From a bacterium (GTDB lineage: Bacteria; Desulfobacterota; S145-22), in assembly GCA_029934085.1 (NCBI GenBank), contig JAOZMY010000008.1:2468-42028 (forward strand): 39,561 bases of DNA. The letters are read 5' to 3'. Below, one piece after another: positions 2,847 to 33,812 of this stretch. The position numbers and the translations under genes were made by a program. The notes under the pieces are model-generated. The model saw nothing but the letters and a program-made list of their open reading frames with translations, was not told where the DNA came from and ran no database searches. The stretch's first letter is position 1, and each line of letters opens with the position of its first letter.

Positions 2847-4201
2847 TTCCTGGTCCAGGTCTCCCTTACAATCTTCCAGGTCCCCGATTTCCGGCTGAGA
2901 ACCAACTCCTTGATCCCTCTATCCCAAAAGTCTCCCTGCCGATAAATCTGGAGGAATCGCACCGAAACCCGTTCGCCGTCAGTATGGATCATCACATTCT
3001 TCAATGTTACATGAATAATATCATTCTTCATAAATATCTTTGATTTATACCGCTTCCATTCCTCCAAATCCATGGATCCACTGTTAAATCGATTCGAATA
3101 GAACGACGCATATCGATCCAGGTCCCCTTCCTCCCACGCGTTTTTCCACTCCTCAAGAAATTTCCACAGCTCCTCATAGCGGCCTTCCTTAGGAAGCGGG
3201 TAAAAGATACGGTATCTCTTTTCGGGGAGAGACAAACGGCTAAGTGTCTCCTCGTAATACGTCCATTTCTCTCTCATCAAAGGGGCGGGAATCCATTCCT
3301 CCCCCACAATTTTCCTCTCTCCATTATTTCTGCTCAGGTAGAGTCGCCTGAAACCTTCCGCCTTGAAGTCACCATGTCGAAATACCTCTGAGAACGCAAT
3401 CACCTCATATGCGTCCGTCCGCAAGATCATCGGATCCTTGATCTCCACCTCCATCTGCAGACGATACCTCTTGAACAACTCAAATTGATGGGACCGCCAT
3501 TTAGAAAGTTTCCTCCCTTTGGAAAAGAAAAACGGGGTATAACAAGCTTTATACGTATCCATATCCCCGGTTTCCCGAGCGAATCGCCACCTCTCAAGAA
3601 ACGCGAGGGCAAGATCCTTCTCGCTTTTTAGCTGATCCTGAGAAAGAAGCTGTATTTTTCGATCAATAATAATCGGCGTGACAAAGAGCTTGATACGCTG
3701 CGCAAGGGAAAACAGGTCTTCATTCTCCAGAACAATACACCCCCTGCTACTTCTCACCGTCCTGTCCTCACGGATCCCGTGAATCCAGATGCCACCCCCG
3801 TTTCGATGTCTCTGCTTGTCCATAGGATTCGGATAGTTCAAAGGCAGGGCACATACGCCATACTTCCTCCCGAGGTTAGGAGGAACCAGAATGGTCCTGC
3901 AAAAATAGACGCCTTCCGGGGTTCTTTTATCCCCCAATACCGCTTTATCCCCGAGCGCCTCTCCCGTGGCGCAAACCATCGTTCTCTCAATCGTTAAATC
4001 ACCCGTTCCCGCACCCGTAATAAGATAAAGACGCTGCCGGGACTTGTCCACCAACACCGCCTGCATTCCCTGAGGCAAGCGGAGTATATTGGAGGGATAC
4101 CAGTCCTTCTTTGCCGAGCCCTCGTATGCAGACACAACAGGTCCAAGCGCCAAAAAAAACAACAGGCCCCACACAACATACCTTTTAGGCCCTCGACGCA
4201 T
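2840..4201 (-). CDS. L,D-transpeptidase (YkuD) domain protein with two C-terminal NTF2/SnoaL-like repeats
   Basis: YkuD catalytic His/Cys block GIWIHGIREDRTVRSSRGCIVLEN. Two internal repeats (ERWRFARETGDMDTYKACY... and EEWKNAWEEGDLDRYASFY...). I chose the start at M33 of the tracked ORF (ATG 4199-4201), which gives a signal/anchor-like N-terminus MRRGPKRYVVWGLLFFLALGPVVSAYEG. The tracked start at 4297 would overlap the upstream gene. Confidence 0.8.
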   Translation of the reverse strand: MRRGPKRYVVWGLLFFLALGPVVSAYEGSAKKDWYPSNILRLPQGMQAVLVDKSRQRLYLITGAGTGDLTIERTMVCATGEALGDKAVLGDKRTPEGVYFCRTILVPPNLGRKYGVCALPLNYPNPMDKQRHRNGGGIWIHGIREDRTVRSSRGCIVLENEDLFSLAQRIKLFVTPIIIDRKIQLLSQDQLKSEKDLALAFLERWRFARETGDMDTYKACYTPFFFSKGRKLSKWRSHQFELFKRYRLQMEVEIKDPMILRTDAYEVIAFSEVFRHGDFKAEGFRRLYLSRNNGERKIVGEEWIPAPLMREKWTYYEETLSRLSLPEKRYRIFYPLPKEGRYEELWKFLEEWKNAWEEGDLDRYASFYSNRFNSGSMDLEEWKRYKSKIFMKNDIIHVTLKNVMIHTDGERVSVRFLQIYRQGDFWDRGIKELVLSRKSGTWKIVRETWTRNW

Positions 4202-4283
4202 TTCGACATAGAAAAGAAAATCTATAAGACGGAGGTAAAAGTAGTTGGGCTCTCCTGTGGCCTCAACAACCGGCTTCCCCCCC

Positions 4284-4484
4284 CTACCCAGACACATGTC
4301 CTTCCAAAATAATCCTGTGATTCAGAAGATCCATGGAGATGATTCGCCCTTCGACGGTCTTCGACTTTCCGATAATATCCTCCAGGACGAATTTGTTCGG
4401 CCCTTCCCACACGATCGATTGTATATCTTCCATCACGAGAATCTCGTCTTCACCTTTTTTTATAAACGCCTTCGGGGTACACAT
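4284..4484 (-). CDS. CooT-family small protein (putative nickel-binding, Cys2)
   Basis: 66-aa product MCTPKAFIKKGEDEILVMEDIQSIVWEGPNKFVLEDIIGKSKTVEGRIISMDLLNHRIILEG follows the CooT pattern as I recall it from Rhodospirillum CooT (Met-Cys start, ~65 aa, conserved G/D/L spacing). GGAGAG Shine-Dalgarno ~10 nt upstream of this ATG. The tracked ORF starts 27 nt further upstream (4511). Confidence 0.55.
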   Translation of the reverse strand: MCTPKAFIKKGEDEILVMEDIQSIVWEGPNKFVLEDIIGKSKTVEGRIISMDLLNHRIILEGHVSG

Positions 4485-4611
4485 GGCCTTGTTCTCTCCG
4501 GGATCTTCCAATCACTTATTTTTAGACTGTCCTTATCGAAACCCACGCGTTTTGTCAATACGCCGCCGTCCCCCTACATAAACATGTTTTCAAACAAGAC
4601 GCCTCTCCCCT

Positions 4612-4639
4612 TTGATTTTTTAGATCCCTGAATTATACT
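4612..4639 (+). promoter_or_regulatory. Candidate sigma70-type promoter for the malic-enzyme gene
   Basis: TTGATT (4612-4617), 16-nt spacer, TATACT (4634-4639), ~57 nt upstream of ATG 4696, which is preceded by AAGGAGG (4684-4690). Motif match only. Confidence 0.35.
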
Positions 4640-4695
4640 GGAAATTAAGAGATTGCCCCCTTAAAAATGGCCGTCTCTCAGTCAAGGAGGTTTTC

Positions 4696-7215
4696 ATGAA
4701 AGAGAAAGAAAAATCCCTCTGGTACAGGGAAAAATATAACGGCTTGATCGGGGTTCAGAGCAAGGTTCCCATCCGGGACAGTTCGGTGTTAAGCCTTGTC
4801 TACACCCCCGGGGTCGCGGAACCCTGCCGCGCCATCGAGAAAGATCCCTCCACCTCGTTCGATTACACCTGCCGGGGCAATACTGTTGCGCTCATCACGG
4901 ACGGGTCCCGGGTCCTGGGGTTGGGCAACAAGGGACCCTTGGCCGCCATGCCGATCCTGGAAGGGAAATCAGTCATCTTCAAGACCTTCGCCAACGTGGA
5001 TGCCTTTCCCATCTGCCTCAAGACGCAGGACGTGAACGAAATCGTCCAGATCGTCAGCCTGCTGGCCCCCACCTTCGGGGCCGTCTGCATCGAGGACATG
5101 GACGCCCCGAAGTGTTTCCAGGTGGAAAACATGCTGGCCCGAAGTTTGAACATCCCCGTTTTCCACAATGACCAGCACGGCGCGGCTATTATGGTCCTGG
5201 CCGCCCTCATCAACGCCGGCAAGATCGTTGGAAAGAAGCTCCGGAAGATGCGCGTTGTCATCGCGGGCGCGGGGGCGGCAGGCATCGCCATCGCCAAGCT
5301 TTTGCGTTCCATCGGAATCACCCAAATCATCCTCTGCGACACCCACGGTGCCGTCTACAAATACCGAACCCAGGGAATGAACTGGGCCAAGTTCGAGATC
5401 GCCAAAACGACCAACGAGGATACGGAAAAGGGCCCCCTGGAAGAGATAATTAAAAAGGCGGACGTTTTCATTGGGGTGTCCGGGAAGGGGTCCCTGACAC
5501 CGGAAATGATTCGGTCCATGAATCCAGATCCCATCGTCTTCGCTCTTTCCACTCCTAAACCGGAGATTACCCCTGCAGAGGCGAAGGAAGCGGGGGCTCG
5601 GATCGTGGGAACGAGTCTGCCGGAATCCCTCAACGAGATGAACGTGGCCATGGTCTTTCCGGGGATCTTCCGGGGAATTCTCGACGTCTTCGCCCGGGAG
5701 ATCAACACGGAGATGAAACTGGCCGCGGCCCATGCCCTCGCCTCAACCGTGGAAAAGGAACGACTCAACGAAGGAATCGTTCTGCCCCGCATCTTCGATT
5801 TCCGGGTGGCGCCCGTAATCGCCGGTGCGGTGGCCAAGACCGCCATCGAGACCGGCGCGGCGCGAAGGTCCGTCGACCCGGAGGAGATCGTCAAGCGGAC
5901 GGAGAGCTACGTTTACGAAGGATTCCAAGTCCCTCCGACCACGTCGCCGAAAAATGACCTGAAATCCCAGTCCCTCGATCTCCACAAACGCTACCGAGGT
6001 GTCGTTGAGGTCAAGGCCAAGATCCCTGTGAAAGATCACTATATCCTGGATCTCCTCTATCTCCCCCCGCGAAGTGCTGATCCGGTTCTTCAGATCATCA
6101 AGCATCCGGAGAAGGTGTATGACTACACCTGTAAAGGAAACCTCATCTCCGTCATCAGCGACGGAAGTGCCGTCCTGGGCCTGGGAAACATCGGAGCCCG
6201 TGCCGCTCTCCCCGTGATGGAGGGGAAATGTATCCTCTTCCACACCTTCGGCGGCGTCGAGGCCTTTCCCATCTGCCTGGGAACCCAGGACCCGGACGAA
6301 CTCATCCGTGTCATCGCCAGCATCTCCACGCCGTTCGGCGGGATCAACCTGGAGGACATCTCCGCTCCCCGGTGTTTCTATGTGGAGCGACGGCTTTCAG
6401 AAATCCTCGACATTCCCGTTTTCCATGACGACCAGCACGGAACCGCCGTTGTCCTCCTCGCCGGGCTGACCAACGCCCTAAAGATCGTAGGGAAAAAATT
6501 CAAGGATATCCGCGTGGTCATCAGCGGCGCGGGGGCGGCGGCCATCGCCGTGGCCAAGATCCTCCTCTCCGCGGGGGCGAAAAACATCATCCTCTGTGAC
6601 CGGCACGGCGCCATCTACGCAGGCCGTAAGGAGGGAATGAACTGGATCAAGGAGGAGATGGCCAAACTCACCAATCCGGAAAAGCTCAAAGGGGAACTGA
6701 AGGACGTCCTCAAGGGAAGCGATGTCTTTCTCGGTTTCTCCGTCCCGGGGGTCATCACCAGCGCCATGGTCAAAACCATGGCAAAGGATCCCATCGTCTT
6801 CGCCATGGCCAATCCCGTTCCGGAAATCATGCCGGAGGAGGCAAAGGCGGGCGGGGCCCGCATCGTGGGAACGGGCCGCTCCGACTTCCCCAACCAGATC
6901 AACAACTCCCTCGGGTTTCCCGGCATCTTCCGTGGGGCGCTGGGAGTCCAGGCCAAGACCATCAACGAGACAATGAAGCTCGCCGCCGCCCAGGCCCTGG
7001 CCGACGCCGTTCCGGAGGAAGAACTCTCCGAGGAAAAGGTCATTCCCGAAATGATGGATTTCCGGGTCCCCCCCAAGGTCTCCGCCGCCGTGGCGGCGGC
7101 CGCCATCAAAACCGATGTGGCGAGAAAAATCGTTGATCCAGCGGAGATTGAAGAGGTGCATCTTGCCTTTCTCTATGAGGGACACCTCCCGAAGATTGGG
7201 GAAGTGGGGGGATAG
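4696..7215 (+). CDS. Tandem double malic enzyme (two complete malic-enzyme modules fused in one 839-aa polypeptide)
   Basis: Module 1 (about 4696-5930): YTPGVAE, LGLGNKGP, EGKSVIFK, IEDMDAP, FHNDQHG, AGAGAAG. Module 2 (about 5981-7212): LGLGNIGA, EGKCILFH, NLEDISAP, FHDDQHG, SGAGAAA, GTGRSDFPNQINNSLGFPGIFRG. Both modules end with a YEG-containing tail. No PTA-like domain. Confidence 0.9.
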   Translation: MKEKEKSLWYREKYNGLIGVQSKVPIRDSSVLSLVYTPGVAEPCRAIEKDPSTSFDYTCRGNTVALITDGSRVLGLGNKGPLAAMPILEGKSVIFKTFANVDAFPICLKTQDVNEIVQIVSLLAPTFGAVCIEDMDAPKCFQVENMLARSLNIPVFHNDQHGAAIMVLAALINAGKIVGKKLRKMRVVIAGAGAAGIAIAKLLRSIGITQIILCDTHGAVYKYRTQGMNWAKFEIAKTTNEDTEKGPLEEIIKKADVFIGVSGKGSLTPEMIRSMNPDPIVFALSTPKPEITPAEAKEAGARIVGTSLPESLNEMNVAMVFPGIFRGILDVFAREINTEMKLAAAHALASTVEKERLNEGIVLPRIFDFRVAPVIAGAVAKTAIETGAARRSVDPEEIVKRTESYVYEGFQVPPTTSPKNDLKSQSLDLHKRYRGVVEVKAKIPVKDHYILDLLYLPPRSADPVLQIIKHPEKVYDYTCKGNLISVISDGSAVLGLGNIGARAALPVMEGKCILFHTFGGVEAFPICLGTQDPDELIRVIASISTPFGGINLEDISAPRCFYVERRLSEILDIPVFHDDQHGTAVVLLAGLTNALKIVGKKFKDIRVVISGAGAAAIAVAKILLSAGAKNIILCDRHGAIYAGRKEGMNWIKEEMAKLTNPEKLKGELKDVLKGSDVFLGFSVPGVITSAMVKTMAKDPIVFAMANPVPEIMPEEAKAGGARIVGTGRSDFPNQINNSLGFPGIFRGALGVQAKTINETMKLAAAQALADAVPEEELSEEKVIPEMMDFRVPPKVSAAVAAAAIKTDVARKIVDPAEIEEVHLAFLYEGHLPKIGEVGG

Positions 7216-26957: not shown

Positions 26958-26986
26958 TTGACTTGACTGGCCAACTTTGTTATGAG
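26958..26986 (+). promoter_or_regulatory. Candidate sigma70-type promoter for the por-nuoEF operon
   Basis: TTGACT (26958-26963; a second overlapping TTGACT at 26963-26968), 17-nt spacer, TATGAG (26981-26986), 34 nt upstream of ATG 27020. Confidence 0.35.
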
Positions 26987-27019: not shown

Positions 27020-27568
27020 ATGATAGAGATTCGATTCCATGGTAGAGGAGGGCAGGGAGCTGTTACATCCGCCGAGCTGTTGGCCGTGGCTGCTATTGAG
27101 CATGGTATGTACGCCCAGGCATTTCCCAGTTTTGGGCCGGAGAGAAGAGGCGCTCCCGTCGTGGCCTTCTGCAGAATCAGCGACAGCCCCATCCGTTTGC
27201 GGGCCAATATCTACGAGCCGGATGTGGTCATCGTCCTGGATCCCTCGGTTCTGACCATCGCCCATGTTGAAAGAGGCCTCAAGCCAGATGGAACCCTTAT
27301 CTGTAACACGAAGTACGATGGGAATCACATCCGTAATCTCCTCAAAGTCAAGCAGAAGACGGCAACCGTCGATGCGAGCCACATCGCCATGGAAATTTTA
27401 GGCTTACCCATTACCAACACCACCATGTTGGGTGCCCTAATCAGGGCCACAGGCCTCTTGGAGGAAGACGCCTTGGAGGGTCCCCTGAAACGCCGGTTCG
27501 GGAAGATCGCGGAAAAGAATATCAAGGCCTACAAGACAGCCTATGAAAAAACGGTTATTTTAGACTAA
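27020..27568 (+). CDS. porG: 2-oxoacid (pyruvate-type):ferredoxin oxidoreductase gamma subunit
   Basis: 182 aa. [22 protein letters not shown]...[13 protein letters not shown] is a canonical PorG N-terminus. The tracked ORF start (26735) lies inside tatC and is rejected. Confidence 0.88.
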
Positions 27569-27667
27569 CCGAAAATATATGTATCTACAAGGACTCAAAA
27601 TAGCAAAAGCACGGTCAAGAGTTTCAAATCATTGGACTTTTGACGAAGCTGTAGAGGGAGAATAAAG

Positions 27668-27958
27668 GTGAAACCAGTAGATCAAATGACCTGGAAAGAT
27701 CTGAATATTGGGTGCGTCATCACGGAACCGGGGAATGCCGCCGAATATAAAAGCGGTGACTGGCGTTCCATGCGTCCCATTTGGGACAAGGATCGTTGCA
27801 TCCAGTGCGGCGTCTGTTATATCTTTTGCCCCGACGCGGCCATTTATAAAACCGAAGACAACTATTTCGAAGCGGACCTCTACTACTGCAAAGGCTGTGG
27901 AATCTGCGTAAAGGAATGCGTCACCGGGGCCATTCGCCTGGTCGAGGAGGAAGAATAA
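27668..27958 (+). CDS. porD: 2-oxoacid:ferredoxin oxidoreductase delta subunit (2x[4Fe-4S])
   Basis: 96 aa with a GTG start 8-9 nt after GGGAGA. Carries CIQCGVCYIFCP and CKGCGICVKEC. An ATG at 27686 is an alternative start without a Shine-Dalgarno. Confidence 0.85.
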   Translation: MKPVDQMTWKDLNIGCVITEPGNAAEYKSGDWRSMRPIWDKDRCIQCGVCYIFCPDAAIYKTEDNYFEADLYYCKGCGICVKECVTGAIRLVEEEE

Positions 27959-29133
27959 TGCCGAAACGTGTTGGAATGGAAGTTTCCATCGCCGCGAGTG
28001 AGGCCGTTCGCCTGGCGAACGTGGATGCTATCGCGGCTTATCCCATCACTCCACAAACTCATATCGTGGAACATCTCTCGGAGTTTGTCGCCAACGGGGA
28101 ACTGGATGCCGAATTCATCCCCGTGGAATCGGAACACTCCGCCATGAGTGTCTGCTGCGGAACCTCCGCGGCCGGGGCACGGACCTTTACGTGCACCAGC
28201 TCCCAGGGATTGGCACTCATGTCCGAGATCGTGTTCATTGCCTCCGCCATGCAGCTTCCCATCGTCATGATCCTGGCAAACCGGTCCCTGTCCGGCCCCC
28301 TGAGTATCTGGAACGACCACACGGACGTGATGCTGGTTCGGGACTGCGGCTGGATCCAGTGCTTTGGTGAAAACGGACAGGAGATCTTCGACCTGACCCT
28401 GTGCGCCTTCAAAATCGCGGAGGATCATCGGGTCATTCTCCCCTTCATCGTCAACATGGATGGATTCATCCTCTCCCACGTAATCGAGCCAGTGGAACTT
28501 CTGGATCAAGAAACAGTGGATAAATTTCTTCCCGTCTACAAACCGGTTTACCGTCTCGATCCGGACAACCCCGTGACCATGGGGGCCTTTGCCATGCCGG
28601 ATCTCTATACGGAAACCAAAAAGGCCCAGGACGAGCGGCTCAAGGCCTCCAAGCCCGTGATTGAAGAGATATGGAAAGAGTTCGGGGATCTGACGGGACG
28701 CTACTATTCCCCCATCGAAACCTACAAGGCAGAAGGGGCCAAAACCCTCTTCGTCACCATGGGAGGATTCAGCGAGACGGCATCCACGGCCGTGGACATG
28801 ATGCGGGAGGAAGGAGAACCCGTCGGACTGTGCAAGATCCGCCTCTGGCGTCCCTTCCCATTTGAGGACTTCTGGAAGGCCGTCAAAGGCGTGGATACCC
28901 TGATTGTCATCGACCGGGCTACATCCTATGGGGGGCCGGGAGGTCCCGTCGCGTCGGAACTTCGTTCCGCCCTCTATACCTGGGAGGATGCACCCAAGGT
29001 GGTCGACTTCATCGCAGGGCTTGCGGGTAGGGACGTCGCACCGGGGGATTATAAGAAAATGTATCAACGTGCCCAGCAGCGAATCGCCTCGGGAGACATC
29101 GCGGGCTACGAAATCTACGGAGTAAGGGAATAA
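27958..29133 (+). CDS. porA: 2-oxoacid:ferredoxin oxidoreductase alpha subunit
   Basis: 391 aa. MPKRVGMEVSIAASEAVRLANVDAIAAYPITPQTHIVE is a typical PorA N-terminus. TAATG overlap with porD. Confidence 0.9.
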   Translation: MPKRVGMEVSIAASEAVRLANVDAIAAYPITPQTHIVEHLSEFVANGELDAEFIPVESEHSAMSVCCGTSAAGARTFTCTSSQGLALMSEIVFIASAMQLPIVMILANRSLSGPLSIWNDHTDVMLVRDCGWIQCFGENGQEIFDLTLCAFKIAEDHRVILPFIVNMDGFILSHVIEPVELLDQETVDKFLPVYKPVYRLDPDNPVTMGAFAMPDLYTETKKAQDERLKASKPVIEEIWKEFGDLTGRYYSPIETYKAEGAKTLFVTMGGFSETASTAVDMMREEGEPVGLCKIRLWRPFPFEDFWKAVKGVDTLIVIDRATSYGGPGGPVASELRSALYTWEDAPKVVDFIAGLAGRDVAPGDYKKMYQRAQQRIASGDIAGYEIYGVRE

Positions 29134-30071
29134 TGGAAAATTTCAATGTTTATGCCGTAAGACTGCTGCCGAAGGGAGAGTACATCGCCCCGGGTCACCG
29201 AGCGTGCCAGGGATGCGCGGAAGTATTGGCGGTCCGCCTCGTGGGAAAGGCCCTGGGCAGAAACACCGTCATCGCCTGTGCGACGGGGTGTATGGAAATC
29301 ATCTCCTCTCCTCTTCCGACCACTTCCTGGCGTGTGCCTTGGATCCATGTGGCCTTTGAAAACGCCGCGGCCGTTGCATCGGGGGTAGAAGCGGGGCTCA
29401 AGGTCCTGATGAGGAAAGGTCGGATTCCCAAGAAGAAGATCAATGTCTTAGCCATGGCCGGAGATGGAGGAACCTCCGACATTGGGTTGCAAGCCCTTTC
29501 CGGTGCCTTGGAACGAGGTCACAACATGATCTACGTCTGTTATGACAACGAGGCCTACATGAACACGGGAATCCAGCGGTCCTCCTCAACCCCCTTCGGG
29601 GCGGCCACGACTACCTCGCCGGCCGGAAAGGTCAAACCGGGACAGGTAACCTGGAAGAAAAACATGCCGGAGATCGCGGTGGCCCATAATATTCCCTACG
29701 TGGCGACGGCGTGTCCCAGCTATCCCTTCGACCTTATGGAAAAGGTCAAAAAGGCCGCAGAGGTGGAAGGACCTGCCTACATTCACATCTTATCGGTCTG
29801 CCCCACGGGCTGGCGGCTTGCGCCGGACTTGGCCATTCGTGCTGGACGGCTCGCCGTGGAAACGGGGATCTTCCCCCTCTACGAGGTGGAAAACGGAAAA
29901 TACTCGTTGAGCGTGGAGATCCCGAAGCGGAGACCCGTCGAAGACTACCTGAAGATTCAGGGACGTTTTCGCCACCTGACTCCTGATCTCATCCAAAAGA
30001 TTCAGGAACACGTGGATAAGAAATACAACAACCTGTTAGCCAAGGTTCGTTTCAGTGAGGAAATGTCATGA
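29133..30071 (+). CDS. porB: 2-oxoacid:ferredoxin oxidoreductase beta subunit (TPP-binding)
   Basis: 312 aa with GHRACQGCAE and the TPP motif MAGDGGTSDIGLQALSGALERGHNMIYVCYDNEAYMNTG. TAATG overlap with porA. Confidence 0.9.
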   Translation: MENFNVYAVRLLPKGEYIAPGHRACQGCAEVLAVRLVGKALGRNTVIACATGCMEIISSPLPTTSWRVPWIHVAFENAAAVASGVEAGLKVLMRKGRIPKKKINVLAMAGDGGTSDIGLQALSGALERGHNMIYVCYDNEAYMNTGIQRSSSTPFGAATTTSPAGKVKPGQVTWKKNMPEIAVAHNIPYVATACPSYPFDLMEKVKKAAEVEGPAYIHILSVCPTGWRLAPDLAIRAGRLAVETGIFPLYEVENGKYSLSVEIPKRRPVEDYLKIQGRFRHLTPDLIQKIQEHVDKKYNNLLAKVRFSEEMS

Positions 30072-30532
30072 GTCCGGAAACATTAGATGCCATCCTTGAA
30101 CGTTACGACAGGAATCCCGCCCAGTTGATCCCCATTCTCCAGGACGTGCAGGCGGAGGAAAACTATCTTCCGAGGGAGGCCTTGGAAGCCATCTCCGAAA
30201 AGTTAGACATCCCCCTCGTTCGGATCTACTCGGTGGCCACCTTTTATAAGGCCTTTAGCCTGGAACCGAGAGGAAAACACATTATCCAGGTATGCATGGG
30301 AACGGCATGCCACGTGCGTGGCGCCCCCCGCATCCTCGACAAAATGGTCCGGGATCTTGGCGTCCAGCCCGGTGCAACCACAAAGGATATGGAATTTACA
30401 CTGGAAACCGTCAATTGTCTCGGTGCTTGCGCCTTGGGGCCCATCGTGGTGGTTGACGGCGAATACCACGGACAGATGACGTCCCCCAAATGGGATAAAA
30501 TCTATAAAACGCTGAAGAAGGCAGAGGGTTAA
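30068..30532 (+). CDS. nuoE: NuoE/HydC-like thioredoxin-like [2Fe-2S] protein
   Basis: 154 aa with VCMGTAC and VNCLGAC Cys pairs and the typical NuoE N-terminus (ILERYDRNPAQLIPILQDVQ). ATGA overlap with porB. Confidence 0.88.
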   Translation: MSPETLDAILERYDRNPAQLIPILQDVQAEENYLPREALEAISEKLDIPLVRIYSVATFYKAFSLEPRGKHIIQVCMGTACHVRGAPRILDKMVRDLGVQPGATTKDMEFTLETVNCLGACALGPIVVVDGEYHGQMTSPKWDKIYKTLKKAEG

Positions 30533-30535
30533 TCG

Positions 30536-32389
30536 ATGAGACGTGTGAACTCCCAGCAGGAGCTGGAGGCTTTACGAGAAGAGATCCGGAAGGCGAGGGA
30601 TCCCAACCAGATCCTTGTAACCATTTGTACCGGAACGGGATGCCATGCTTATGGCTGTATGAACATCGTTTCCGCCTTTAAACAGGAGATCGAAAAGGCG
30701 GGACTGACTGACAAGGTGGGGATCCGAACCACGGGGTGCCATGGGTTCTGCGAGAGAGGTCCCCTGGTGGTTATCTATCCCCAGAAGATCTTCTACCAAC
30801 GGGTACAGATTGACGACGTGGCTGAAATTGTTAATGAAACTTTGAAAGACAGCAAGGTCATCGATCGTCTCCTCTACGCCCATCCCCAGACGGAGAAGGT
30901 GGCAACCTACGAACATGATGTCCCCTTTTACAATCTCCAAAAGAGGATCATATTTGGCAACAACGGCCTCATCGATCCCACGAGCCTGGAAGATTATCTC
31001 GCCATTGGTGGATACGCGGCCTTCGCCAAGGCCCTCTTTGCCATGAAGCCTGAAGAGGTTTTAGAGGAGGTCAAGAAATCGGGGCTCCGCGGGAGAGGCG
31101 GCGGTGGATTCCCCACGGGACGCAAGTGGGAAAGCTGCCGAAACGCCAAAGACGACAAGAAATATGTCATCTGCAACGCGGACGAGGGCGATCCCGGCGC
31201 TTACATGGACCGGAGCCTTTTGGAAGGAAATCCTCACAGCGTCCTGGAAGGGATGCTCATTGGTGCCTACGCCATCGGTTCGGACGAAGGATACATCTAC
31301 GTGCGAAACGAGTATCCCCTGGCGGTCAAACACGCGGAGATTGCCATTGATGCCCTGAAAGAGATAGGGCTTTTGGGTGAAAACATCCTTGGCACCGATT
31401 TCTCATTCGACATCCACATCAACCGCGGCGGCGGTGCCTTCGTGTGTGGGGAATCAACCGCCCTGGTGGCCTCCATCGAGGGCCGAGTGGGGGAACCCCG
31501 TTCCAAATACATTCACTTGGCGGAAAGCGGTTTGTGGGGGAAACCCACCAACCTCAACAACGTGGAAACCTGGGCCAACGTCCCCGTTATCATCGACAGA
31601 GGAGCCGATTGGTATACCCAGATCGGAACGGAAGGCAGCAAGGGAACAAAGATCTTTTCGTTGGTCGGAAAGGTCAACAACACGGGCCTTGTCGAGGTCC
31701 CCATGGGGATTACCCTCCGAGAGATCATCTTTGACATCGGCGGAGGTATTCCCAACGGGAAGAAGTTCAAGGCCGTCCAGACGGGAGGTCCCTCCGGCGG
31801 CTGTATCCCGGAATCCCTTATCGACATCCCCGTCGATTTCGATAAGTTGACGGAGGTGGGCTCCATGATGGGATCCGGCGGCATGATCGTCATGGACGAG
31901 TCCACCTGCATGGTGGATGTGGCCAAATACTTCGTCAACTTCCTGAAAGGTGAGTCGTGCGGGAAGTGCACCCCCTGCCGTGAAGGGCTGCTACGCATGT
32001 CCCAGATCCTCGAAGACATCACAGAGGGGCGCGGGGAAGAGGGAGATATCGAGCTGCTCGAAGAGCTGGGCGAGGTTATGAAAGACGCCTCTCTCTGCGG
32101 GCTCGGTCAGACCGCCCCCAACCCAGTGCTCAGCACGATCAAGTATTTCCGGGATGAATACGAGGCCCACATCAAGGAAAAGCGCTGTCCGGCGGGAGTC
32201 TGCAAGGCCCTCATCACCTATGAGATCGACCCGGATAAGTGTACCGGTTGTGGGGCATGCAAGCGTAACTGCCCCGTGGAATGTATCTCCGGTGAGAAAA
32301 AAGAGCCTCATACCATTGATCAATCGAAGTGCATCAAGTGCGGCACCTGTAAAGACGTCTGTAAATTTGATGCCATAACCGTGAAATAG
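30536..32389 (+). CDS. nuoF: NuoF/HydB-like NAD(P)H-binding FMN Fe-S flavoprotein
   Basis: 617 aa. N-terminal 2Fe-2S thioredoxin-like domain ([11 protein letters not shown]...[10 protein letters not shown]), [29 protein letters not shown], and a C-terminal ferredoxin domain ([23 protein letters not shown]). This is the architecture of HydB-type subunits of NAD-linked hydrogenases and formate dehydrogenases. Confidence 0.9.
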
Positions 32390-32401
32390 AAGGAAACAAC
32401 C

Positions 32402-33124
32402 ATGGCAAAGGTTCAACTAACCATTGACGGAAGAACGGTCGAAGCGGAAGAGGGCGCCATGCTGCTGCAGGTCGCCAGAGACGCGGGTGCAGATATCCCT
32501 TCCCTCTGTCACAACGACGAAATAAAACCTTACGGCGCCTGCCGGATGTGTATGGTCGAGGTGGAGGAACACGGAAGAAAACGCCTGGTCACCTCCTGCA
32601 CCTACCCCGTTAAGGAAGGCATCTCCGTGACCACTCAATCCGACCGTATCTTCAGAAACCGAAAGATGATCGTAGAGCTTCTCCTCGCGCGGTGTTACAA
32701 GGTCCCCGAAGTGCGGGAAATGGCGCGCAACTACGGCATCGAGGTGGAAAACCCGCGGTTTGAAACCCGTGAAGACACCTGTATCCTCTGCGGCATGTGT
32801 GTCCGCGTATGCGACGAGGTCGTCGGAGTTCACGCCATTGGTTTCGCGGGAAGGGGTCCTGACCGTGTACCGACACCTCCCTTCAAAGAACCATCCGAAC
32901 TATGCATCGCGTGTGGCGCCTGCGTCTACGTCTGCCCGGTCGACGCCATCAAGATGGTGCAAACACCGGAGGCAAGAACCATCAAGCGTTGGCAGCGGAC
33001 CCTTCCCATGAAGGTATGCAAAATCTGCGGAGAACCCTTCATGCCGGAATATCAGATCGAATACTTCACCAAACGTGCGAAGATACCGGAGGACTTCTTT
33101 GAAGTTTGTCCCAATTGCCGCTAA
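32402..33124 (+). CDS. Truncated NuoG/HydA-N-terminal-like Fe-S protein (2Fe-2S plus 2x[4Fe-4S]; no catalytic domain)
   Basis: 240 aa. 2Fe-2S pattern SLC...GACRMC...TSC, then CILCGMCVRVC and CIACGACVYVCP, then a terminal CKIC...CPNC pair. Ends well before any H-cluster or molybdopterin domain. Confidence 0.8.
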   Translation: MAKVQLTIDGRTVEAEEGAMLLQVARDAGADIPSLCHNDEIKPYGACRMCMVEVEEHGRKRLVTSCTYPVKEGISVTTQSDRIFRNRKMIVELLLARCYKVPEVREMARNYGIEVENPRFETREDTCILCGMCVRVCDEVVGVHAIGFAGRGPDRVPTPPFKEPSELCIACGACVYVCPVDAIKMVQTPEARTIKRWQRTLPMKVCKICGEPFMPEYQIEYFTKRAKIPEDFFEVCPNCR

Positions 33125-33154
33125 TTTTATCACAAAAAAGGCCATGCTTTCCCA

Positions 33155-33182
33155 GGGCGAGGGTTCCTCGCCCTTTTCTTTT
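33155..33182 (+). terminator. Rho-independent terminator closing the por-nuoEFG' operon
   Basis: GGGCGAGG-GUU-CCUCGCCC (8-bp GC-rich stem) followed by TTTTCTTTT, 31 nt after the stop at 33124. Confidence 0.75.
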
Positions 33183-33329
33183 AGGAAACTCTTCCGGCCA
33201 AAAAATGGATAAATTACGCATAAAACCTATCCCGCCCAACAATTCACATAAATGCTTGACATTCCCTCCTTCATGGATGAAATTTACCCCTAAAATATAT
33301 TCAACCCATAGCAACAAGGAGGTGCAACG

Positions 33330-33812
33330 ATGAAAGCATTGGTTGTCTATTCGAGTCAGTCCGGCAACACGAAAAAGCTGGCGGAGGCCGTTTACGAGGT
33401 GCTTCCGGACGAAAAGGAAATCCATCCTGTCGACGAAGCCCCGGAGCCCTCGGGATACGACCTCGTCGCCGTGGGGTTCTGGTTCAAATCGGGCGATCCA
33501 GACCCCAAGTCCGCAGAATATCTGAAGAAGATCAGCGGAACGAAGCTCTTCCTCTTCGCAACACACGGAGCGGCCCCCGATTCGGACCACGCTCGGAAGG
33601 GTATGGAGGCGGCAAAGGCCCTTGCGAAGGGGGCTGAAATCGTAGGAACCTTCAATTGTCAAGGGGTTGTCAATCCGGGGCTTCTGGAAAAGGTCAAGGC
33701 CCGCCCCAATCCCCCGGAGTGGATCGGGGACGCGGACAGCGCCGTCGGCCACCCGGATGAGAACGACCTCAACGCCTTGAAAGAAAAGGTAAGAGAGATC
33801 CTTTCAGCCTAA
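33330..33812 (+). CDS. Flavodoxin-family protein
   Basis: 160 aa. MKALVVYSSQSGNTKKLAEAV is the flavodoxin FMN phosphate loop. AAGGAGG Shine-Dalgarno. Confidence 0.8.
   Translation: MKALVVYSSQSGNTKKLAEAVYEVLPDEKEIHPVDEAPEPSGYDLVAVGFWFKSGDPDPKSAEYLKKISGTKLFLFATHGAAPDSDHARKGMEAAKALAKGAEIVGTFNCQGVVNPGLLEKVKARPNPPEWIGDADSAVGHPDENDLNALKEKVREILSA

What the first reader, a model, noticed from the sequence alone, without database searches (positions are those of the whole stretch)
27020..33182. Four-subunit 2-oxoacid:ferredoxin oxidoreductase translationally coupled to a NuoE/NuoF/truncated-NuoG module in one promoter-to-terminator unit
Seen: porG-porD-porA-porB are followed, with an ATGA overlap (30068-30071) and 3- and 12-nt gaps, by a NuoE-like 2Fe-2S protein, a HydB-type NuoF-like FMN/NAD(P)H protein and a 240-aa NuoG-N-terminal-like Fe-S protein. 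The unit is bounded by a promoter-like element (26958-26986) and a strong intrinsic terminator (33155-33182). No hydrogenase, formate dehydrogenase or complex I membrane subunit is attached. Established: NuoEF/HydBC modules are the NAD(H)-binding, often bifurcating, entry points of multimeric [FeFe]-hydrogenases and NAD-dependent formate dehydrogenases. PFOR-type enzymes normally hand electrons to free ferredoxin or flavodoxin. The known pyruvate:NADP oxidoreductases of protists use a different (P450-reductase-type) fusion. Inference: this operon may encode a complex that links 2-oxoacid oxidation, or pyruvate synthesis, directly to NAD(P)(H). It might use ferredoxin or flavodoxin as a second partner in bifurcating or confurcating fashion. 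A flavodoxin gene follows immediately (33330).
Basis: partly seen in the sequence, partly recalled or inferred. Interest (0 to 1): 0.62.

Follow-up and report, generated by a model that had tools for sequence, protein, structure and literature searches.

The report
Por-Bfu pyruvate oxidoreductase operon
Seven tightly packed genes join a four-subunit pyruvate:ferredoxin oxidoreductase to an NADH/ferredoxin electron-bifurcating flavin module; the arrangement is real and widely conserved, but it was published as the predicted "Por-Bfu" enzyme in 2022 and I found no biochemical study of it.

Summary
porG-porD-porA-porB-bfuC(NuoE-like)-bfuB(HydB-type NuoF)-bfuA(240-aa NuoG-N-like) lie at 27020-33124 with TAATG, TAATG and ATGA overlaps and 3- and 12-nt gaps, and end at a strong terminator. 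The proposed promoter is weak.

The NuoF-like subunit has every cofactor signature of bifurcating BfuB: an N-terminal [2Fe-2S], FMN, the B1 cluster, the His/Cys B2 site and a C-terminal 2x[4Fe-4S]. The short NuoG-like protein is not a truncation. It is the zinc-finger, catalytic-domain-less "type 2" BfuA seen in the WorABCSL structure (9MQX), without that protein's C-terminal adaptor helix.

The gene order is conserved in the window's own family and in 28 of 40 sampled loci from 22 other families of Thermodesulfobacteriota, with different flanking genes. OFOR-linked BfuB proteins form one well-supported clade.

I found no biochemical characterisation in the searched literature. The flavodoxin link is specific to this lineage and the flavodoxin gene lies beyond the terminator.

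Verdict: a sound new member of a known, predicted enzyme class, of modest interest. The same genome also wires a VOR-like enzyme and a CODH to NAD(P)-type modules.

The parts
26958..26986 (+). Weak sigma-70-like element (TTGACT-17 nt-TATGAG) in the 70-nt tatC-porG spacer; a GAAGGTG ribosome-binding site precedes the porG ATG
   Evidence: Read by eye. Not reported by the consensus scan.
27020..27568 (+). porG, OFOR gamma subunit (182 aa)
   Evidence: Pfam POR 2.8e-43. NCBIfam NF006321 'pyruvate ferredoxin oxidoreductase subunit gamma' 228.7 bits, above its 225-bit cut-off.
27668..27958 (+). porD, delta subunit with 2x[4Fe-4S] (96 aa)
   Evidence: Fer4 families. PorD_Arch 112 bits, just under its 120-bit cut-off; PorD_KorD subfamily 100.5 bits, above its 60-bit cut-off.
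27958..29133 (+). porA, alpha subunit (391 aa)
   Evidence: POR_N 4.9e-75 and PFOR_II. Best solved relative is 9bt4_B, pyruvate:ferredoxin oxidoreductase alpha, 3.4e-100. TAATG overlap with porD.
29133..30071 (+). porB, TPP-binding beta subunit (312 aa)
   Evidence: TPP_enzyme_C. NF008819 'pyruvate synthase subunit PorB' 445.9 bits, above its 405-bit cut-off, while the VOR-beta model scores 373.6, below its cut-off. TAATG overlap with porA.
30068..30532 (+). bfuC, NuoE/HydC-like [2Fe-2S] subunit (154 aa); cluster C1 ligands Cys76, Cys81, Cys117, Cys121
   Evidence: 2Fe-2S_thioredx 1.2e-52. The four Cys are invariant in 9 aligned homologues. ATGA overlap with porB.
30536..32389 (+). bfuB, HydB-type NuoF (617 aa). 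Cofactor ligands: B5 [2Fe-2S] Cys31/36/68/72; FMN/NAD(H) domain; B1 Cys475/478/481/521; B2 (FeS or Zn) site Cys458, Thr496, His545, Cys551, Cys556; B3/B4 Cys569/572/575/579 and Cys599/602/605/609
   Evidence: Pfam. Aligns end to end with the bifurcating NiFe-HydB 7t2r_B (1.6e-260) and with WorB 9mqx_B (2.1e-248). Ligand columns checked.
32402..33124 (+). bfuA, type 2 BfuA (240 aa). A1 [2Fe-2S] Cys36/47/50/66; two [4Fe-4S] (A2/A4) Cys127/130/133/137 and Cys168/171/174/178; zinc-finger Cys206/209/236/239. No His-ligated cluster, no catalytic domain, no C-terminal helix
   Evidence: Full-length match to WorA 9mqx_A, 1e-47. Cys columns. Description of WorA and of Por-Bfu BfuA in PMC12318220.
33154..33182 (+). 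Intrinsic terminator that closes the operon
   Evidence: 9-bp stem with 7 GC pairs, 3-nt loop, T-rich tail.
33330..33812 (+). Flavodoxin_3 (BilS-like) gene; a possible but unproven lineage-specific redox partner, apparently a separate transcription unit
   Evidence: Flavodoxin_3 6e-38. Present downstream in all 9 genomes of the window's own family. Absent from all 40 sampled loci of other families. Lies after the terminator, with a TTGACA box upstream.

Best explanation
The operon encodes a Por-Bfu enzyme: a pyruvate-type four-subunit 2-oxoacid:ferredoxin oxidoreductase (PorGDAB) attached to a BfuABC electron-bifurcating module.

Proposed mechanism, inferred by analogy with the solved Bfu enzymes:
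1. Electrons from TPP-dependent pyruvate decarboxylation leave through the [4Fe-4S] chain of PorB and PorD.
2. They enter BfuA at its outer [4Fe-4S] cluster (A4) and run through A2 and A1 to the FMN/B1/B5/C1 site of BfuBC.
3. There four electrons from two pyruvates are split. A hydride goes to NAD+ at the FMN. Two low-potential electrons go through the C-terminal B3/B4 clusters of BfuB to ferredoxin (or possibly flavodoxin).

The reaction should be reversible. In reverse, NADH plus reduced ferredoxin would together drive pyruvate synthesis from acetyl-CoA and CO2.

Shown here: gene content, cofactor ligands, conserved order and the OFOR-specific BfuB clade. Inferred: the physical complex, the pyruvate substrate, obligatory coupling and the physiological direction.

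In this genome it is the only pyruvate-typed OFOR, so it is probably the main link between pyruvate and acetyl-CoA.
For: 1. Domain content and tight translational coupling of the seven genes.
2. BfuB has all the features that the Bfu literature uses to separate bifurcating from non-bifurcating NuoF homologues (B2-B5 including the conserved His; PMC9304861). These are Cys458/Thr496/His545/Cys551/Cys556, the C-terminal 2x[4Fe-4S] and the N-terminal [2Fe-2S]. A second NuoF in the same genome, next to cooS, lacks them, so the long form is not a lineage default.
3. BfuA has no catalytic domain. It matches WorA of the solved WorABCSL over its full length, zinc finger included, and there the equivalent subunit receives electrons from partner subunits.
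4. The porGDAB-bfuCBA order is conserved in relatives with different flanking genes. It holds in 28 of 40 sampled loci from 22 further GTDB families of the phylum. One variant keeps porGDAB plus bfuA alone (L147).
5. OFOR-linked BfuB sequences form one clade with 99/99 support, separate from complex-I-type sequences.
6. NCBIfam types PorB and PorG as pyruvate enzymes above their cut-offs. The genome's other four-subunit OFOR types as VOR. No monomeric PFOR-sized frame was found.
7. The same architecture was published as predicted Por-Bfu, with similar expression of all its genes across growth phases in Dehalococcoides mccartyi 195 (PMC9304861).
Against: - No protein-level evidence exists, either here or in the literature I could search.
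- PorGDAB is complete on its own and could simply reduce free ferredoxin.
- BfuA lacks the C-terminal helix that docks the partner subunit in WorABCSL, so the docking mode is unknown.
- PorA and PorD fall below their pyruvate-equivalog cut-offs, so substrate assignment rests on PorB and PorG.
- Thermodynamically, pyruvate (about -500 mV) can reduce both NAD+ and ferredoxin without bifurcation (noted in PMC9304861), so the benefit of coupling is unclear.
- NAD versus NADP specificity was not tested.
Confidence: 0.65

Rival explanations
1. Two separate enzymes share one transcript. A conventional ferredoxin-reducing POR works alongside a free-standing BfuABC that acts as a soluble ferredoxin:NAD+ oxidoreductase. 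They communicate only through the free ferredoxin pool, and co-transcription merely balances their amounts.
For: PorGDAB has every subunit of a self-sufficient POR. BfuA lacks the C-terminal adaptor helix that recruits the partner subunit in WorABCSL. There is no physical evidence for a complex.
Against: - Conservation of order and tight spacing across at least 23 families with changing flanks is stronger than expected for mere co-regulation.
- A variant keeps bfuA alone next to porB, which points to a direct Por-BfuA relationship.
- BfuB forms an OFOR-specific clade.
- In the characterised Wor-Bfu enzyme, neither NAD nor ferredoxin is reduced without the other, with a third substrate supplying the electrons (PMC9304861). 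A BfuABC with no third-substrate site therefore has no known complete reaction.
Confidence: 0.2
2. A non-bifurcating pyruvate:NAD+ oxidoreductase. The NuoEFG-like module simply passes pyruvate electrons to NAD+, as in NAD-dependent phenylglyoxylate dehydrogenase or NAD-linked formate dehydrogenases, with no ferredoxin involvement.
For: Pyruvate oxidation is low-potential enough to reduce NAD+ directly (Table 1 of PMC9304861). OFOR-family enzymes that use NAD exist: the NCBIfam PadE-I 'NADH-dependent phenylglyoxylate dehydrogenase' models hit the Por subunits below their cut-offs.
Against: BfuB keeps the C-terminal B3/B4 ferredoxin-type clusters, the B2-site His/Cys and the N-terminal B5 cluster. 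These are absent from the characterised non-bifurcating homologues (PMC9304861), and also from the short NuoF next to cooS in this same genome.
Confidence: 0.1
3. Same architecture, different substrate. The OFOR part acts mainly on another 2-oxoacid such as 2-oxoisovalerate or 2-oxobutyrate, rather than on pyruvate.
For: PorA (481.5 bits against a 550-bit cut-off) and PorD (112 against 120) do not reach their pyruvate-equivalog cut-offs. VOR and general 2-oxoacid models also score highly.
Against: PorB and PorG pass the pyruvate equivalog cut-offs, while the VOR-beta model falls below its own. The paralogous cluster on contig C169 shows the opposite pattern (VOR-beta 410 bits above its 405 cut-off; PorB 372.6 below). 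The best solved relative of PorA is a pyruvate:ferredoxin oxidoreductase.
Confidence: 0.12

Closest known systems
Por-Bfu (Por-BfuA-G), the predicted type 2 member of the BfuABC family (Schut et al. 2022, Front Microbiol 13:946711, PMC9304861; Dehalococcoides mccartyi and 'syntrophic Proteobacteria')
   Same: - Four Por subunits plus BfuC, BfuB and BfuA in one cluster.
- BfuA lacks the A3 and A5 clusters and has a zinc finger but no C-terminal helix (PMC12318220).
- BfuB has the full B1-B5 set.
- The sequence block around B1/B2 is close to the D. mccartyi Por-BfuB block printed in the paper's supplement.
   Different: - The host is an uncultured family of Thermodesulfobacteriota.
- The class is much more widespread in that phylum than the 12 sequences counted in 2022 (at least 23 families).
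- A flavodoxin gene follows the operon in this family only.
- The class is itself only a prediction; no enzyme has been purified.
WorABCSL, the electron-bifurcating tungsten aldehyde oxidoreductase of Acetomicrobium mobile (PDB 9MQX; PMC12318220)
   Same: The BfuA subunit is the closest solved relative (1e-47 over the full length; A1, A2, A4 and the zinc finger). BfuB matches at 2.1e-248. Both have external catalytic subunits feeding a catalytic-domain-less BfuA.
   Different: The catalytic partner is a TPP/Fe-S OFOR, not a tungstopterin WorSL. The C-terminal adaptor helix of WorA (13 residues beyond the zinc finger) is missing and there is no WorS homologue, so nanowire-type assembly is not expected.
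Bifurcating hydrogenases: NiFe-HydABCSL (7T2R/7T30) and FeFe-HydABC (7P5H, 8A6T, 7Q4V)
   Same: The BfuBC core is conserved end to end (7t2r_B 1.6e-260), including the B2-site His and Cys and the C-terminal ferredoxin domain.
   Different: No H-cluster, no NiFe subunits, and no A3 or A5 cluster in BfuA. The genome has no recognisable hydrogenase at all.
Respiratory complex I NuoEFG (N-module)
   Same: Homologous NuoE, NuoF and NuoG-N-terminal folds, and the FMN/NADH site.
   Different: No membrane or Q-module genes are attached. NuoF carries extra N- and C-terminal Fe-S domains. The NuoG-like protein has 240 aa against more than 800 aa in the complex-I-type loci found in Geobacter and Desulfomonilaceae.
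Other pyridine-nucleotide-linked OFOR enzymes: protist pyruvate:NADP+ oxidoreductase (PFOR-CPR fusion) and NAD-dependent phenylglyoxylate dehydrogenase PadEFGHI (both from established knowledge; the Pad models appear)
   Same: An OFOR catalytic core is coupled directly to NAD(P).
   Different: The NAD(P) modules are unrelated (P450-reductase-type or other flavoprotein) and do not bifurcate. Here the module is HydBC-type with a ferredoxin-interacting domain.

Membership tests
BfuABC family (Schut et al. 2022) | BfuB with a Nuo51 FMN-binding domain, an SLBB domain, the NuoF 4Fe-4S domain and a ferredoxin-type 4Fe-4S domain (IPR011538, IPR019554, IPR019575, IPR017896) | tested here: met
   The Pfam equivalents PF01512, PF10531, PF10589 and PF00037/Fer4 are all present in the 617-aa protein.
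BfuABC family (Schut et al. 2022) | BfuC is NuoE-like (IPR002023) with the C1 [2Fe-2S] cluster | tested here: met
   PF01257 1.2e-52. Cys76/81/117/121 are invariant.
BfuABC family (Schut et al. 2022) | Clusters B2-B5 are present in BfuB and absent from non-bifurcating homologues, including the conserved His of the B2 site | tested here: met
   Cys458, Thr496 (Cys or Thr is allowed at this position), His545, Cys551 and Cys556 align with C438/C476/H525/C531/C536 of 7t2r_B. The B3/B4 and B5 cysteines are present.
BfuABC family (Schut et al. 2022) | BfuA with at least a 2Fe-2S ferredoxin-type domain and a 4Fe-4S ferredoxin-type domain (A1 and A2 present) | tested here: met
   PF13510/PF00111 plus dicluster Fer4. 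Cys ligands conserved.
BfuABC family (Schut et al. 2022) | Tightly coupled bifurcation: the third substrate reduces NAD+ and ferredoxin only together | not testable with these tools
   Requires enzyme assays.
Por-Bfu (type 2 Bfu) | Four POR subunits encoded in the same cluster as BfuABC | tested here: met
   Conserved in relatives.
Por-Bfu (type 2 Bfu) | BfuA lacks A3 (the His-ligated cluster) and A5, carries the zinc-finger motif, and lacks the WorA-type C-terminal helix | tested here: met
   No HxxxCxxC motif between residues 80 and 125. Cys206/209/236/239 align with the WorA zinc finger. The protein ends at the last CxxC, whereas WorA continues for 13 more residues.
Por-Bfu (type 2 Bfu) | BfuB falls in the Por sub-clades of the published BfuB tree (clades 35, 44, 45) | tested here: inconclusive
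   My own tree puts all OFOR-linked BfuB in one 99/99 clade, and the B1/B2 block resembles the D. mccartyi Por-BfuB.
Por-Bfu (type 2 Bfu) | One physical seven-subunit complex | not testable with these tools
   Only genetic evidence is available: overlapping genes and conserved order.
Four-subunit pyruvate:ferredoxin oxidoreductase (PorABDG) | Alpha, beta (TPP), gamma and delta (2x[4Fe-4S]) subunits that score as pyruvate equivalogs | tested here: inconclusive
   All four subunits are present. PorB (445.9 bits, cut-off 405) and PorG (228.7, cut-off 225) pass. PorA (481.5, cut-off 550) and PorD (112, cut-off 120) do not.
Respiratory complex I | NuoEFG encoded with Q-module and membrane subunits; full-length NuoG | tested here: not met
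   No such genes flank the cluster. The NuoG-like protein has 240 aa.
[FeFe]/[NiFe] bifurcating hydrogenase or NAD-dependent formate dehydrogenase | H-cluster domain, NiFe large and small subunits, or a molybdopterin domain attached to the NuoEF module | tested here: not met
   None is present in the operon. There are no Fe_hyd_lg_C or NiFeSe_Hases hits above cut-off anywhere in the genome.

The most novel reading that the evidence does not exclude
In this family the enzyme may use the BilS-like flavodoxin encoded immediately downstream as its low-potential partner in place of ferredoxin. That gene is conserved after the operon in all nine genomes of the family and is absent next to Por-Bfu in 22 other families.

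The enzyme would also be the sole pyruvate/acetyl-CoA link of an organism that has the Wood-Ljungdahl enzyme AcsB but no hydrogenase and no DsrA. That organism hard-wires three low-potential oxidoreductases (POR, a VOR-like enzyme and a CODH) to pyridine-nucleotide modules. This would point to a metabolism built to keep its free low-potential carrier pool small.
Probability: 0.15. Interest if true: 0.5.

Novelty: new member of a known kind. Interest (0 to 1): 0.3.

Why it matters
Por-Bfu would put the central pyruvate/acetyl-CoA step of many anaerobes under flavin-based electron bifurcation. That would change how the ferredoxin and NADH budgets of syntrophs, organohalide respirers and uncultured Thermodesulfobacteriota are modelled.

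The class is still only a genomic prediction. This window adds three things:
- another clean example;
- a survey showing that the operon is common across the phylum (at least 23 families);
- an internal contrast within one genome, between a long bifurcation-type NuoF next to por and a short NuoF next to cooS.

It does not add a new idea, and the host is uncultured, so it is not the best entry point for biochemistry.

Tried and rejected
2. Promoter: the consensus scan did not recover the proposed element. I keep it only as a weak candidate.
3. Search for a PorB-BfuA 'Rosetta stone' fusion, using a concatenated PorB+BfuA query. The only longer hits (438 aa, Fer4 + TPP_enzyme_C) look like delta-beta-type fusions, not BfuA fusions. 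This was uninformative; it is not evidence against such fusions.
4. Complex I reading: rejected. The 35-39% BfuA matches in Geobacter and Desulfomonilaceae are N-termini of 820-890-aa NuoG proteins inside apparent nuo operons (inferred from ORF sizes and order), and their BfuB proteins form separate clades.
5. Hydrogenase or FDH module elsewhere in the genome serving this NuoEF: no hydrogenase hits in the genome.
6. Literature search for a biochemical characterisation of Por-Bfu or co-migration data: nothing found.
7. Whether the 83-nt porG-porD insertion is a repeat element: it is single-copy in the genome.

Full report
**Observation.**
The ORF list and the Pfam and NCBIfam scans confirm seven co-directional genes:
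- porG 27020-27568;
- porD 27668-27958;
- porA 27958-29133;
- porB 29133-30071;
- a NuoE-like gene 30068-30532;
- a 617-aa NuoF-like gene 30536-32389;
- a 240-aa NuoG-N-terminal-like gene 32402-33124.

The junctions read TAATG (porD/porA), TAATG (porA/porB), ATGA (porB/NuoE-like), a 3-nt gap and a 12-nt gap. A 9-bp, GC-rich hairpin followed by TTTTCTTTT at 33154-33182 heads the terminator list of the 9-kb scan. The promoter proposed at 26958-26986 is not recovered by the scan. By eye it is TTGACT-17-TATGAG, a weak match. Upstream lies tatC. Downstream lie a Flavodoxin_3 gene, a GH13 sucrose-phosphorylase-like gene and a PaaK-like ligase. No hydrogenase, formate dehydrogenase or complex I membrane gene is attached. 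The 99-nt porG-porD spacer holds an ~83-nt insertion that close relatives lack and that is single-copy in the genome.

**What the three Nuo-like proteins are.**
The 617-aa protein aligns end to end with BfuB/HydB subunits of structurally solved bifurcating enzymes: 7t2r_B at 1.6e-260, 9mqx_B at 2.1e-248, 8a6t_B and 7q4v_B. It has:
- the N-terminal thioredoxin-like [2Fe-2S] domain (Cys31/36/68/72);
- the FMN/NADH domain;
- the B1 cluster (Cys475/478/481/521);
- the B2-site residues Cys458, Thr496, His545, Cys551 and Cys556, which align with C438/C476/H525/C531/C536 of the NiFe enzyme;
- a C-terminal 2x[4Fe-4S] domain.

Schut et al. 2022 use exactly these features (B2-B5, including the His) to separate bifurcating BfuB from non-bifurcating NuoF homologues (PMC9304861).

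The 154-aa protein has the four NuoE/HydC cluster cysteines.

The best solved relative of the 240-aa protein is WorA of the bifurcating tungsten aldehyde oxidoreductase WorABCSL (9mqx_A, 1e-47, full length). It shares the [2Fe-2S] cluster, two [4Fe-4S] clusters and the C-terminal CxxC...CxxC, which in WorA binds zinc (PMC12318220). It lacks the His-ligated cluster and any catalytic domain. It ends at the second CxxC, without WorA's C-terminal adaptor helix. The same paper states that the BfuA of Por-Bfu has the zinc finger but lacks that helix. The protein is therefore a defined type 2 BfuA, not a truncated NuoG.

**What the OFOR is.**
NCBIfam types PorB (445.9 bits, cut-off 405) and PorG (228.7 bits, cut-off 225) as pyruvate enzymes. 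PorA and PorD score best on pyruvate models but fall below their cut-offs. The nearest solved PorA relative is a pyruvate:ferredoxin oxidoreductase (9bt4_B, 3.4e-100). The genome (2.4 Mb, 94% complete) has nine POR_N hits and no frame of monomeric-PFOR size. Its only other four-subunit OFOR, on contig C169, types as VOR-like (VOR-beta 410 bits above its 405 cut-off; PorB model 372.6 below). The window's enzyme is thus the only pyruvate-typed OFOR found.

**Conservation.**
- The same seven-gene order occurs in eight close relatives labelled Thermodesulfobacteriota or unclassified (83-98% BfuA identity). It also occurs in a Zymogenaceae MAG and a Syntrophales MAG (47-68% identity). A further MAG has bfuCBA upstream of porGDAB.
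- Two metagenomic contigs carrying 56-59%-identical BfuA have the same operon between entirely different neighbours: dnaX-ybaB-recR upstream and HSP20 downstream.
- In a sample of 401 genomes of the phylum, 203 have a full-length BfuA-type match at E <= 1e-40.
- I fetched 40 of these loci from about 30 families. Twenty-eight of them, from 22 families other than the window's own, carry complete porGDAB-bfuCBA in the same order. The remaining 12 include short contigs, lone bfuA genes, bfuCBA without por, and modules with about 40%-identical BfuB in other contexts.
- One locus has porGDAB followed by bfuA alone (L147).
- In a maximum-likelihood tree of 35 BfuB sequences, all 14 por-linked sequences cluster in one clade with 99/99 support. 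The clade also holds one sequence that sits next to a two-subunit OFOR. It is separate from the Geobacter and Desulfomonilaceae sequences, whose loci carry full-length NuoG in apparent nuo operons.

The refutation criterion 'the gene adjacency is not conserved' is therefore clearly not met.

**Prior knowledge.**
Schut et al. 2022 (PMC9304861) already describe this cluster as 'Por-Bfu (A-G)'. [quoted passage not shown] They note similar expression of all its genes in D. mccartyi 195. They propose either pyruvate synthesis from NADH plus reduced ferredoxin, or pyruvate oxidation strictly coupled to simultaneous NAD+ and ferredoxin reduction. Searches for later biochemical work found none. Earlier notes of this scan reached the same identification for similar operons in other genomes. 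I treat those as leads, not evidence.

**Mechanism (inference).**
By analogy with WorABCSL and the hydrogenases, electrons from TPP-bound pyruvate would pass through the PorB and PorD clusters to BfuA, along A4, A2 and A1. From there they reach the FMN/B1/B5/C1 site. Four electrons from two pyruvates would yield one NADH and two low-potential electrons delivered through B3/B4 to ferredoxin. With the potentials tabulated in PMC9304861 (pyruvate -500 mV, ferredoxin about -500 mV, NAD about -280 mV in vivo), the oxidative direction is exergonic overall. It could push ferredoxin reduction even at low pyruvate or with a highly reduced ferredoxin pool. The reverse direction would halve the ferredoxin cost of pyruvate synthesis but needs favourable metabolite ratios.

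The genome has AcsB (Wood-Ljungdahl pathway), no DsrA and no [NiFe] or [FeFe] hydrogenase. Either direction is physiologically conceivable and I cannot decide between them.

**Flavodoxin.**
The Flavodoxin_3/BilS-like gene follows the operon in all nine genomes of the window's family. It appears in none of the 40 loci from other families. It sits after the terminator, with its own TTGACA box. It is a possible lineage-specific partner and nothing more.

**Rivals.**
1. Separate POR and BfuABC communicating through free ferredoxin. This is plausible a priori. It fits poorly with the depth of conservation, the por+bfuA-only variant and the lack of a third-substrate site in BfuABC.
2. A non-bifurcating pyruvate:NAD+ oxidoreductase. 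This is disfavoured by the retained ferredoxin-side clusters, especially as the same genome uses a short NuoF without them next to cooS.
3. A different 2-oxoacid substrate. This is possible but not favoured by the family scores.

**Verdict.**
This is a new member of a known, predicted kind, and interest is modest (0.3). The untested points are the physical complex, obligatory coupling, nucleotide and carrier specificity, and physiological direction.

Noticed in passing
own genome, contig C150:54-5557 (minus strand) = L154: A cooF-cooS-nuoE-nuoF-bfuA cluster. An anaerobic CODH (TIGR01702, 692.9 bits) is followed by a NuoE-like gene, then a short 535-aa NuoF, then a 261-aa zinc-finger BfuA. The NuoF has only Complex1_51K and NADH_4Fe-4S; it has no N-terminal 2Fe-2S and no C-terminal 2x[4Fe-4S], and it has Ser and Tyr at the B2-site Cys458 and His545 positions. 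It looks like a CODH wired to a non-bifurcating NAD(H) module. The published 'Codh-Bfu' was reported only in Firmicutes.
   Followed up: partly
own genome, contig C169:17181-21492 (plus strand) = L155: A second four-subunit OFOR that types as VOR-like. Its delta subunit is the C-terminal end of a 570-aa GltD/NfnB-like flavoprotein (Fer4_20 + Pyr_redox_2 + Fer4; NF009410, 537 bits). This is a different way of wiring an OFOR to NAD(P)H in the same genome.
   Followed up: partly
L147 (G028:C75:900-12700), 3031-6946 minus strand: porGDAB is followed directly by a 254-aa BfuA-type gene, with no bfuC or bfuB in the 11.8-kb stretch. Beyond an unassigned 180-aa ORF downstream lies a HEPN/nucleotidyltransferase pair. 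Either this is a five-subunit POR with an extra Fe-S wire, or it is a remnant after loss of bfuCB.
   Followed up: partly
L011:3855-13209: A bfuCBA module in the same BfuB clade lies between a molybdopterin oxidoreductase with its Fe-S subunit (upstream) and a two-subunit OFOR (577-aa gamma-alpha fusion plus 343-aa beta) with a small ferredoxin (downstream).
   Followed up: partly
window 27569-27651: An ~83-nt insertion in the porG-porD spacer is absent from the 92-98% identical relatives L001, L002 and L003. It is single-copy in the genome and its function is unknown.
   Followed up: partly
L010 and L082, BfuB N-terminus: Two por-linked BfuB homologues (from a Syntrophales MAG and GCA_037441725.1) show Gly at the positions of Cys31 and Cys36 of the N-terminal [2Fe-2S] domain in my alignment. 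The precomputed Pfam list for the L082 protein lacks 2Fe-2S_thioredx. This could be a real loss of cluster B5, or an artefact of alignment or start-codon choice.
   Followed up: no
own genome, whole: AcsB is present, but no DsrA and no [NiFe] or [FeFe] hydrogenase were detected in a 94%-complete MAG of a Thermodesulfobacteriota family. The genome holds nine POR_N-containing OFOR genes, three of them with IOR-sized frames.
   Followed up: partly
window 33240-33330: A perfect TTGACA box and an AAGGAGG ribosome-binding site precede the flavodoxin gene, downstream of the por-bfu terminator. This suggests an independent transcription unit.
   Followed up: no
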